DNA of 13,925 bases, from IMG/VR virus record IMGVR_UViG_3300031772_009399; one strand, 5' to 3'. The notes beneath the pieces were generated by a model. That model was not told the origin of the DNA, ran no database searches, and was given only the letters and a program-made list of their open reading frames with translations. Numbering within the stretch: the first letter of the stretch is position 1; every line of letters starts with the position of its first letter. Shown in pieces: positions 1,558-1,971 of this stretch. This DNA is from a virus. Made by a program: the position numbers and the translations under genes.

Positions 1558-1971
1558 ATGTCGATCGAGACATATTCTAGAGAATCTCTGGGCCGGCTGC
1601 GCTACGAGAGGGGCACCCAGGGTCCCAGGTTGGTCTTGGAAGTCGACCCGGGAATTGCCAAGGTTACCAGGTGGCTGATTCCCGCGCATTATCACGTGCA
1701 GCCCCAGATGTACCCGTCGCACATCACTGTGATCCGCCACGAGCGACCTTCCCGCGAGTTTTGGAGCAAGTACGACCGCGAAAATATCAAGTTCTGGTAC
1801 GACCCGTGGGTCCGCAGTGACGAGACATACTGGTGGCTGAACGTGCGTTGTCCCAGGTTGTCAGAGATTCGCATGGAACTTGGCCTGAAACCCACGCGGT
1901 TCACGCCGCAGGATGCCGCGGGCGGTTTCCACATGACAGTCGGAAACACCAAAAAATGGAACGAACGATGA
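1558..1971 (+). CDS. Putative 2H phosphoesterase (LigT/cyclic phosphodiesterase-like), ~137 aa. In-frame upstream starts at 1450 and 1486 are possible.
   Basis: Two H-hydrophobic-T-hydrophobic motifs, 'SHITVIRH' and 'GFHMTVGN', lie ~70 residues apart and each is preceded by a hydrophobic stretch. This is the signature of the 2H phosphoesterase superfamily. The second motif sits unusually close to the C-terminus, so the assignment is tentative. Confidence 0.4.
   Translation: MSIETYSRESLGRLRYERGTQGPRLVLEVDPGIAKVTRWLIPAHYHVQPQMYPSHITVIRHERPSREFWSKYDRENIKFWYDPWVRSDETYWWLNVRCPRLSEIRMELGLKPTRFTPQDAAGGFHMTVGNTKKWNER

What the first reader, a model, noticed from the sequence alone, without database searches (positions are those of the whole stretch)
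1558..1971. Candidate compact 2H phosphoesterase embedded in the small-gene array just upstream of MVP
Two H-hydrophobic-T-hydrophobic motifs ('HITV' and 'HMTV') lie ~70 residues apart in a ~137-aa protein. This is the defining signature of the 2H (LigT, CPDase, phage Acb1-like) phosphoesterase superfamily. That superfamily acts on 2',3'-cyclic phosphate RNA ends and on cyclic or 2'-5' oligonucleotides. Such an enzyme inside an MVP operon is notable in two ways. Eukaryotic vaults carry small RNAs, so it hints at RNA or cyclic-nucleotide processing linked to the vault-like particle. Alternatively, if the locus is phage-borne, it could be an anti-defence nuclease for cyclic-oligonucleotide signals.
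Basis: partly seen in the sequence, partly recalled or inferred. Interest (0 to 1): 0.55.

Follow-up and report, generated by a model that had tools for sequence, protein, structure and literature searches.

The report
Compact phage 2H phosphoesterase, not vault-linked
The gene really does encode a small two-histidine (2H) phosphoesterase of a family confined to giant phages, but it is not a regular partner of the vault-protein gene next to it; its relatives sit beside tRNA-repair genes, which points to healing of damaged tRNA ends.

Summary

The proposed link to MVP is not supported. Of 80 phage-type MVP loci, only the window's own phage carries this gene. Only 3 of 37 2H lineages have MVP within 6 kb.

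The recurrent neighbours are tRNA-related. They are CCA-adding enzyme (9/37 lineages versus 0/49 control loci), the cREC cyclic-phosphate domain, Thg1, RNA ligase and tRNA arrays.

The best reading is a 2',3'-cyclic-phosphate end-healing enzyme for tRNA repair in huge phages. It is a new member of a known kind and of modest interest.

The parts
1558..1971 (+). Gene for a 137-aa standalone compact 2H phosphoesterase (PHROG 12204; 2H-SAK-like)
1720..1737 (+). Motif 1: H55-I-T57-V-I-R60 (HxT/SxxR) on strand E55-59, the last strand of the N-terminal lobe
   Evidence: H55, [ST]57 and R60 are each 156/156 across the family. Strand assignment is from the model.
1930..1953 (+). Motif 2: H125-M-T127-V-G-N130-T-K132 (HxTxGNxK) on strand E124-130, the last strand of the C-terminal lobe
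   Evidence: H125 153/156, [TS]127 153/156, N130 146/156, K132 151/156. Pfam 2H-SAK alignment covers residues 88-133.
1968..2231 (+). Context only: 87-aa gene whose start overlaps the 2H stop (ATGA). It contains a GCC/GCT repeat and is not conserved in related loci
2698..5364 (+). Context only: major-vault-protein homologue. It is adjacent, but the census shows it is not a conserved partner of the 2H gene
   Evidence: MVP_shoulder 102.3 bits and Vault_3 30.2 bits. Census of 80 MVP loci.
10726..11547 (+). Context, a possible downstream partner by inference only: ApaH / lambda-phosphatase / Pnkp-type binuclear metallophosphoesterase
   Evidence: Metallophos 58 bits. PHROG 246 NinI-like at E 6e-34. 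NCBIfam ApaH 83 bits and Pnkp phosphatase module 62 bits, both below their cutoffs. Syntenic with MVP in L012, L013 and L001.

Best explanation
The gene encodes an active, metal-independent 2H phosphoesterase in a trimmed form, with one beta-beta-alpha-beta unit per lobe. It belongs to a large family that is almost confined to jumbo and huge phages. H55 and H125 would act as the general acid-base pair. T57 and T127 would hold the scissile phosphate, together with the invariant R60 and the N130/K132 pair. The most likely substrate is a 2',3'-cyclic phosphate at the 3' end of RNA, above all tRNA cut by host metal-independent nucleases. Opening the cyclic phosphate would allow a phosphatase to clear the end, and then a CCA-adding enzyme or an RNA ligase to rebuild or reseal the tRNA. 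Shown here: family membership, motif invariance, predicted fold and gene neighbourhoods. Inferred: catalysis, substrate and the order of steps. Layered confidence: 2H superfamily member about 0.9; catalytically active on a cyclic or 2'-5'/3'-5' phosphodiester about 0.8; RNA or tRNA end healing specifically about 0.45-0.5. Its position next to MVP in this phage is best read as lineage-specific synteny, not a functional unit.
Confidence: 0.5

Rival explanations
1. An Acb1-like anti-defence nuclease. The 2H enzyme would degrade host cyclic oligonucleotide or 2'-5' oligoadenylate immune signals (CBASS, Pycsar, type III CRISPR) to blunt abortive infection.
Against: None of the 143 family members hits Pfam Acb1 (PF23474), whereas T4 gp57B scores 203 bits. 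The PHROGs also differ: 12204 versus 755. The recurrent neighbours are tRNA-end repair genes (CCA enzyme, cREC, Thg1, RNA ligase), not anti-defence genes. There are no PADLOC-related hits.
Confidence: 0.17
2. [quoted passage not shown] It would act in an NAD+-dependent branch of RNA repair, downstream of a KptA/Tpt1- or sirtuin-type 2'-phosphotransferase and upstream of a macro-domain phosphatase.
Against: No KptA/Tpt1 or sirtuin was found among the recurrent neighbours. Macro linkage occurs in only 3 lineages and at kilobase distances. There is none in the window.
Confidence: 0.13
3. A Usb1-like RNA 3'-end trimming nuclease. It would process phage tRNA precursors by trimming 3' trailers in tRNA arrays before CCA addition, rather than repairing damage.
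Against: Nothing distinguishes it from end healing with the data at hand. tRNA-array embedding is not significant against control loci. Many lineages, including the window, have no tRNA genes nearby.
Confidence: 0.1
4. A vault-associated factor. The 2H enzyme would be a cargo or cofactor of the phage MVP shell and would process RNA or ADP-ribose-derived cyclic phosphates at the particle.
For: The gene is adjacent and co-directional with MVP, with no strong terminator before the hairpin at 5365-5400. The same adjacency is seen in L001 (64% identical 2H, 73% identical MVP), and MVP is 6 kb away in L024. Human MVP shoulder binds ADP-ribose and vaults carry NADase and PARP activities (bioRxiv 10.64898/2026.05.01.722283).
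Against: Of 80 MVP loci (49 with at least 2 kb upstream; 760 kb of flanks in total), only the window's own phage has the gene, and closer MVP relatives lack it (L110 at 73%, L112 at 68% with 10 kb on each side). 34 of 37 2H lineages have no MVP nearby. The window and L001 are collinear relatives, so their adjacency counts as one event. MVP-linked members carry no extra N- or C-terminal peptide. The interval is not conserved, and the window has no RNA gene.
Confidence: 0.04

Closest known systems
Pfam PF22547 2H-SAK (2H phosphoesterase domain of 'Swiss Army Knife' RNA-repair proteins)
   Same: It is the best and almost the only profile match: 111/143 family members, two relatives above the gathering score with both lobes aligned, and a similarly short domain (124 positions). 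It has the same HxT/S ... HxT arrangement.
   Different: This family is a standalone protein of about 130 aa rather than a domain of a multidomain repair protein. The window protein scores 25.7 bits against a cutoff of 27, and only its C-lobe aligns. PHROGs and GenBank list the family as unknown or hypothetical.
LigT/ThpR RNA 2',3'-cyclic phosphodiesterases (E. coli ThpR, Deinococcus CPDase 5h7f, Pyrococcus PH0099 1vgj)
   Different: They are 170-185 aa, with an extra strand and helix per lobe. Only 7-13 of 143 members touch the LigT profiles, and hhalign to ThpR gives 4% probability. The conserved Arg follows motif 1 here but motif 2 in ThpR.
Phage anti-CBASS nuclease Acb1 (T4 gp57B; PF23474)
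   Different: There is no match to the Acb1 profile (0/143), the PHROG differs, and the conserved neighbours differ (tRNA-end repair genes).
Jumbo-phage RNA-repair gene sets described by Iyer et al. 2021/2022 (2H or cREC + RNA ligase + CCA-adding enzyme + Thg1 + phosphatases)
   Same: The same components recur around this family: CCA enzyme, cREC, Thg1, RNA ligase, calcineurin-like phosphatase, Nudix and macro.
   Different: The tight CCA enzyme-(cREC)-2H gene order with overlapping stops and starts was seen here, and I did not find it described in the papers read. In the window none of these partners is present except a distant metallophosphatase.

Membership tests
2H phosphoesterase superfamily | Two H-x-T/S motifs, each followed by a hydrophobic residue, one per half of the protein | tested here: met
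   HITV at 55-58 and HMTV at 125-128; chance about 1e-4.
2H phosphoesterase superfamily | Both His and both T/S conserved across homologues | tested here: met
   H55 156/156, [ST]57 156/156, H125 153/156, [TS]127 153/156. H55, R60 and H125 are the only invariant columns in A2.
2H phosphoesterase superfamily | Internally duplicated two-lobe alpha+beta fold with each HxT on a beta strand | tested here: met
2H phosphoesterase superfamily | The two His face each other across a common active-site cleft | not testable with these tools
2H phosphoesterase superfamily | Metal-independent phosphodiesterase activity abolished by His mutation | not testable with these tools
   This needs biochemistry.
Pfam 2H-SAK (PF22547) | Score at or above the curated gathering threshold (27 bits) | tested here: inconclusive
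   Window protein 25.7 bits over the C-lobe only. Relatives score 39.2 and 29.3 bits over positions 30-122 of 124. 111/143 members hit at E <= 0.01. The database's precomputed annotation lists PF22547 for the identical protein P0001.
Acb1 anti-CBASS nuclease (PF23474) | Match to the Acb1 profile | tested here: not met
   0/143 members at E <= 0.01. The positive control T4 gp57B scores 202.7 bits. PHROG 755 versus 12204.
LigT/ThpR family (PF02834, PF13563) | Match to the LigT_PEase or 2_5_RNA_ligase2 profiles | tested here: not met
   No hit for the window protein. Only 7 and 13 of 143 relatives hit. ThpR control scores 79 and 53 bits. hhalign to ThpR gives 4% probability.
MVP (vault-like) gene module | Conserved co-occurrence with MVP across lineages | tested here: not met
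   1/80 MVP loci, and that one is the window's own phage. 3/37 2H lineages. L012 has 6.5 kb upstream of MVP and lacks the gene.
Phage tRNA-end repair gene set (CCA-adding enzyme / cREC / Thg1 / RNA ligase) | Recurrent, tight genomic linkage to tRNA-end repair enzymes | tested here: met
   This holds at family level: CCA enzyme in 9/37 lineages against 0/49 controls, cREC in 4-5, Thg1 in 1, RNA ligase in 2. It does not hold within the window itself, whose upstream context is cut by the contig end.

The most novel reading that the evidence does not exclude
In this phage lineage the mini-2H enzyme has been recruited as an accessory of the phage-encoded vault-like MVP shell. It would clear 2',3'-cyclic-phosphate RNA ends or ADP-ribose cyclic phosphates at or inside the particle, which would give the first enzymatic handle on what a viral or prokaryotic vault does. 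The census argues against a general partnership, but it cannot exclude a lineage-specific one (window, L001, and perhaps L024).
Probability: 0.04. Interest if true: 0.75.

Novelty: new member of a known kind. Interest (0 to 1): 0.3.

Why it matters
The result gives a function-level annotation to a large family: 885 clusters at 50% identity, listed as PHROG 12204 'unknown function' and as 'hypothetical protein' in Atu_ph07, phage G, Munch, Kaldavass, Turkey5 and CBB. The family is a minimal 2H phosphoesterase of huge phages. The result also removes a tempting but unsupported link between this enzyme and the phage MVP/vault gene, so MVP function has to be sought elsewhere. Finally, the CCA-adding enzyme-(cREC)-2H gene order, with Thg1 and tRNA arrays nearby, suggests a testable tRNA 3'-end repair cassette in cultured jumbo phages of E. 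coli, Salmonella, Erwinia and Pectobacterium.

Tried and rejected
- PDB sequence searches, with the single protein and with the family profile, gave nothing meaningful.
- Foldseek against the PDB gave no significant hit. BFVD gave only weak 2H-type hits. The afdb50 library was unavailable.
- hhalign of the family against single ThpR and Acb1 sequences only paired the N-lobe with the references' C-lobe. That reflects the internal duplication and does not help with subfamily assignment.
- NCBIfam and PADLOC gave no hit for the 2H protein.
- The window has no tRNA, tmRNA or Rfam family. The 2H-MVP interval has no nucleotide or protein conservation in other MVP loci, so I dropped the idea of a vault-RNA-like gene there.
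I replaced it with a motif-restricted alignment and a degenerate DNA pattern.
- tRNA-array embedding first looked striking, but the MVP control loci showed that tRNA proximity is common in these phages. I downgraded it to suggestive evidence.
- The Burroughs & Aravind 2016 paper that defined the SAK proteins could not be read.

Full report
**Observation**

Window 1558-1971 (+) is an ORF of 137 codons plus a stop codon. Gene calls on the source contig (ENA k141_2627583, 36 kb) and on two JGI contigs use the same start.

In 200,000 composition-preserving shuffles, two H-hydrophobic-[TS]-hydrophobic motifs appear in 0.04% of cases, and with 50-90 residue spacing in 0.0125%. Only this one of 36 long six-frame ORFs in the window has two.

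The previous gene ends 7 nt before the start. The next gene's ATG overlaps the stop codon (ATGA). The MVP homologue starts 727 nt downstream.

**What it is**

- **Profile hits.** Pfam gives one hit, 2H-SAK (PF22547), at 25.7 bits against a gathering score of 27, covering only the C-terminal lobe. PHROGs places the protein in phrog_12204, 'unknown function' (E 1e-18).
- **Family size.** An exhaustive HMMER search with a profile of six close homologues finds 885 clusters at 50% identity with E <= 1e-3, and 405 with E <= 1e-10. Almost all are standalone proteins of 120-145 aa.
- **Conservation.** In 156 of these sequences H55, [ST]57 and R60 are invariant. H125 and [TS]127 are present in 153. P42, Y81, Y91, W93, R105, N130 and K132 are above 90%. 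The family signature is therefore HxS/TxxR ... F-HxTxGNxK.
- **Family-wide profile scan.** Scanned one by one, 111 of 143 members hit 2H-SAK, 13 hit 2_5_RNA_ligase2 and 7 hit LigT_PEase. Two cultured-phage homologues pass the Pfam threshold with both lobes aligned: Kaldavass at 39.2 bits and Turkey5 at 29.3 bits.
- **Predicted structure.** An AlphaFold2 model built on the 143-sequence alignment is confident (pLDDT 92.5, pTM 0.86). It shows a clean duplication, beta-beta-alpha-beta twice, with each HxT on the last strand of its unit.

I conclude that this is a real but divergent and trimmed 2H phosphoesterase, closest to the 2H-SAK domain. I could not measure the His-His distance, because model coordinates are not exposed.

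**It is not Acb1**

Pfam has an Acb1 model (PF23474). T4 gp57B scores 203 bits on it, while none of the 143 family members hits it. The PHROGs also differ. hhalign against single ThpR or Acb1 sequences only aligns the family's N-lobe with their C-lobe, as expected for a duplicated fold. One detail: the conserved Arg follows motif 1 here, whereas in ThpR it follows motif 2.

**Where the family lives**

tblastn against 50,697 phage genomes hits only jumbo and mega phages of 337-595 kb. These are an uncultured 595-kb phage, Atu_ph07, Bacillus phage G (gp116), and the Asteriusvirus-like Munch, 7t3, Kaldavass, Turkey5 and CBB. In all of them the gene is annotated as hypothetical.

A motif scan of one genome for each of 185,579 prokaryotic species found a single MAG contig. 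The window is therefore part of a huge-phage genome. A 64% identical homologue lies on a 309-kb viral contig that is collinear with the window.

**The MVP link**

The 2H-MVP adjacency recurs in L001/L031, which is collinear with the window and so counts as one evolutionary event. MVP also lies 6 kb away from the 2H gene in L024.

I then collected 80 phage-type MVP loci from metagenomes, at 42-100% identity. Of these, 49 have at least 2 kb upstream, 24 have at least 5 kb on both sides, and the flanks total 760 kb. I searched them with the family HMM. Only L109, which is the window's own phage, has the gene. MVP relatives at 73% and 68% identity lack it.

From the other side, 34 of 37 non-redundant 2H lineages have no MVP within reach. 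The two small genes and the DNA between the 2H gene and MVP are not conserved elsewhere. The window holds no tRNA or Rfam RNA. MVP-linked members carry no extra terminal peptide. The 'MVP operon' interpretation is therefore not supported.

Within the window's clade, MVP's more constant companions are the 241-aa protein at 5435-6160 and the metallophosphoesterase at 10726-11547.

**What the neighbours say**

I clustered all ORFs within 5 kb of the 2H gene in 37 lineages, without prior choice of candidates.

| Neighbour | Where |
|---|---|
| Class II CCA-adding enzyme (PolyA_pol head domain) | 9 of 37 lineages: directly upstream, often with overlapping stop and start, in six; 3-4 kb downstream in the three Asteriusvirus-like phages. 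None in 49 control MVP loci (Fisher p = 3e-4; lineages are not independent) |
| cREC, the predicted cyclic-phosphate-processing receiver domain (84 bits) | Between the CCA enzyme and the 2H gene in three lineages; 1 kb upstream in L028; 7.9 kb upstream in L001 |
| Thg1 | Directly upstream in L014 |
| EF-Ts | Directly downstream in L017 |
| RNA ligase and a DUF2828+vWA 'RNA-binding protein' | Upstream in Kaldavass and Munch, with a hibernation factor and Nudix nearby |
| Macro domains | Within 5 kb in three lineages |

Four of the five CCA enzymes I tested lack an HD domain.

In six lineages the gene is embedded in a tRNA array. However, control loci show that tRNA proximity is common in these phages (6/37 vs 2/49, p = 0.07), and T4 Acb1 also lies near tRNA genes. 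I treat this point as suggestive only.

**Mechanism proposed**

H55 and H125 act as general acid and base. T57, T127, R60, N130 and K132 bind the phosphate. The enzyme opens a 2',3'-cyclic phosphate left on tRNA or other RNA by host metal-independent nucleases. A phosphatase then clears the end; in this window that could be the ApaH/Pnkp-like metallophosphoesterase. A CCA-adding enzyme, Thg1 or an RNA ligase then restores the tRNA.

Family membership, the motifs, the fold and the neighbourhoods are shown here. Catalysis, the substrate and the order of steps are inferred. This matches what Iyer et al. predicted for jumbo-phage 2H domains (PMC7824862, PMC9503650).

The rivals are Acb1-like signal degradation, Appr>p hydrolysis, Usb1-like tRNA 3' trimming and a vault-associated role. 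They are listed separately with their evidence.

**Novelty and verdict**

[quoted passage not shown] Viral MVPs were reported in 2023. The identical protein already carries a precomputed PF22547 hit. This is a new member of a known kind: a correctly spotted enzyme with an over-read context.

The by-product, a CCA enzyme-(cREC)-2H cassette in huge phages, is modestly interesting and testable in cultured phages.

Noticed in passing
window 129-1550, 1968-2231, 6292-9387 (+); also 6868-7371 and 10169-10729: At least 15 small genes (63-186 aa) share an N-proximal 'PGD/PGS-hydrophobic' motif and look like a highly diverged paralogue array flanking the 2H and MVP genes. Pairwise BLAST is only weak (p167~p186 at 7e-11, p76~p83 at 2e-4, p106~p87 at 1e-3). 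None has a Pfam or PHROG family, though a few weakly touch positions 135-195 of T4 Gp23 (PF07068). Several are syntenic in L001.
   Followed up: partly
L135, L168, L141, L180 (MVP loci); window 5365-5400: In four MVP loci a single tRNA gene lies 97-183 nt directly downstream of the MVP stop on the same strand: tRNA-Arg(tct) twice, tRNA-Pro(cgg) and tRNA-Arg(gcg). At the same position the window has a 16-bp-stem terminator-like hairpin and no tRNA.
   Followed up: no
window 5435-6160 and 10726-11547: Within the window's clade, a 241-aa protein of no known family sits directly next to MVP in the window, L001, L024 and, weakly, L012. An ApaH/lambda-phosphatase/Pnkp-type metallophosphoesterase lies 2-6 kb downstream of MVP in the window, L012, L013 and L001. 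Each is seen in 5 of the 80 wider MVP loci.
   Followed up: partly
L084 2-1494, L098 1-1307, L099 8484-10537; L019 6583-8345; L018, L023: A tight CCA-adding enzyme-(cREC)-mini-2H gene order with overlapping stops and starts occurs on huge-phage contigs. Four of the five CCA enzymes tested lack an HD domain. In L014 a Thg1 gene is directly upstream of the 2H gene, with tRNAs and a tmRNA directly downstream.
   Followed up: partly
L010 699-4126 (Erwinia phage Kaldavass) and L008 2686-5725 (Salmonella phage Munch): An RNA ligase (PHA02142 OB + RNA_ligase) is followed by a 504-aa DUF2828+DUF7788/vWA protein annotated 'RNA-binding protein', about 1-2 kb upstream of the 2H homologue. The helical-plus-vWA layout is reminiscent of Ro60/TROVE proteins, but I did not test that.
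   Followed up: no
window 2012-2083: A GCC/GCT hexamer tandem repeat (about 12 copies) lies inside the 87-aa gene that overlaps the 2H stop, encoding a Pro/Leu run (PPPLLLPLPPLLLPPLLP). The gene is not conserved in related loci.
   Followed up: no
window 11569-13925 (+): A long ORF runs off the window end (785 codons in the window; 793 aa in the contig's gene call). It has a Lys/Pro-rich C-terminal part and no Pfam, NCBIfam or PADLOC family. A weak homologue sits at the same syntenic position in L001.
   Followed up: no
L014 12724-12797, L022 15154-15233, L028 2361-2435; L014 8973-9332, L044 761-1174: Phage-encoded amber-suppressor-type tRNAs (anticodon CTA) and phage tmRNAs lie near the 2H gene on several huge-phage contigs. 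This may hint at stop-codon recoding in those phages.
   Followed up: no
L001 2062-4100 (-): The window's collinear relative encodes a cREC domain protein and an AAA_5 ATPase 6-8 kb upstream of its 2H gene. The equivalent region of the window's phage is beyond the contig start.
   Followed up: no
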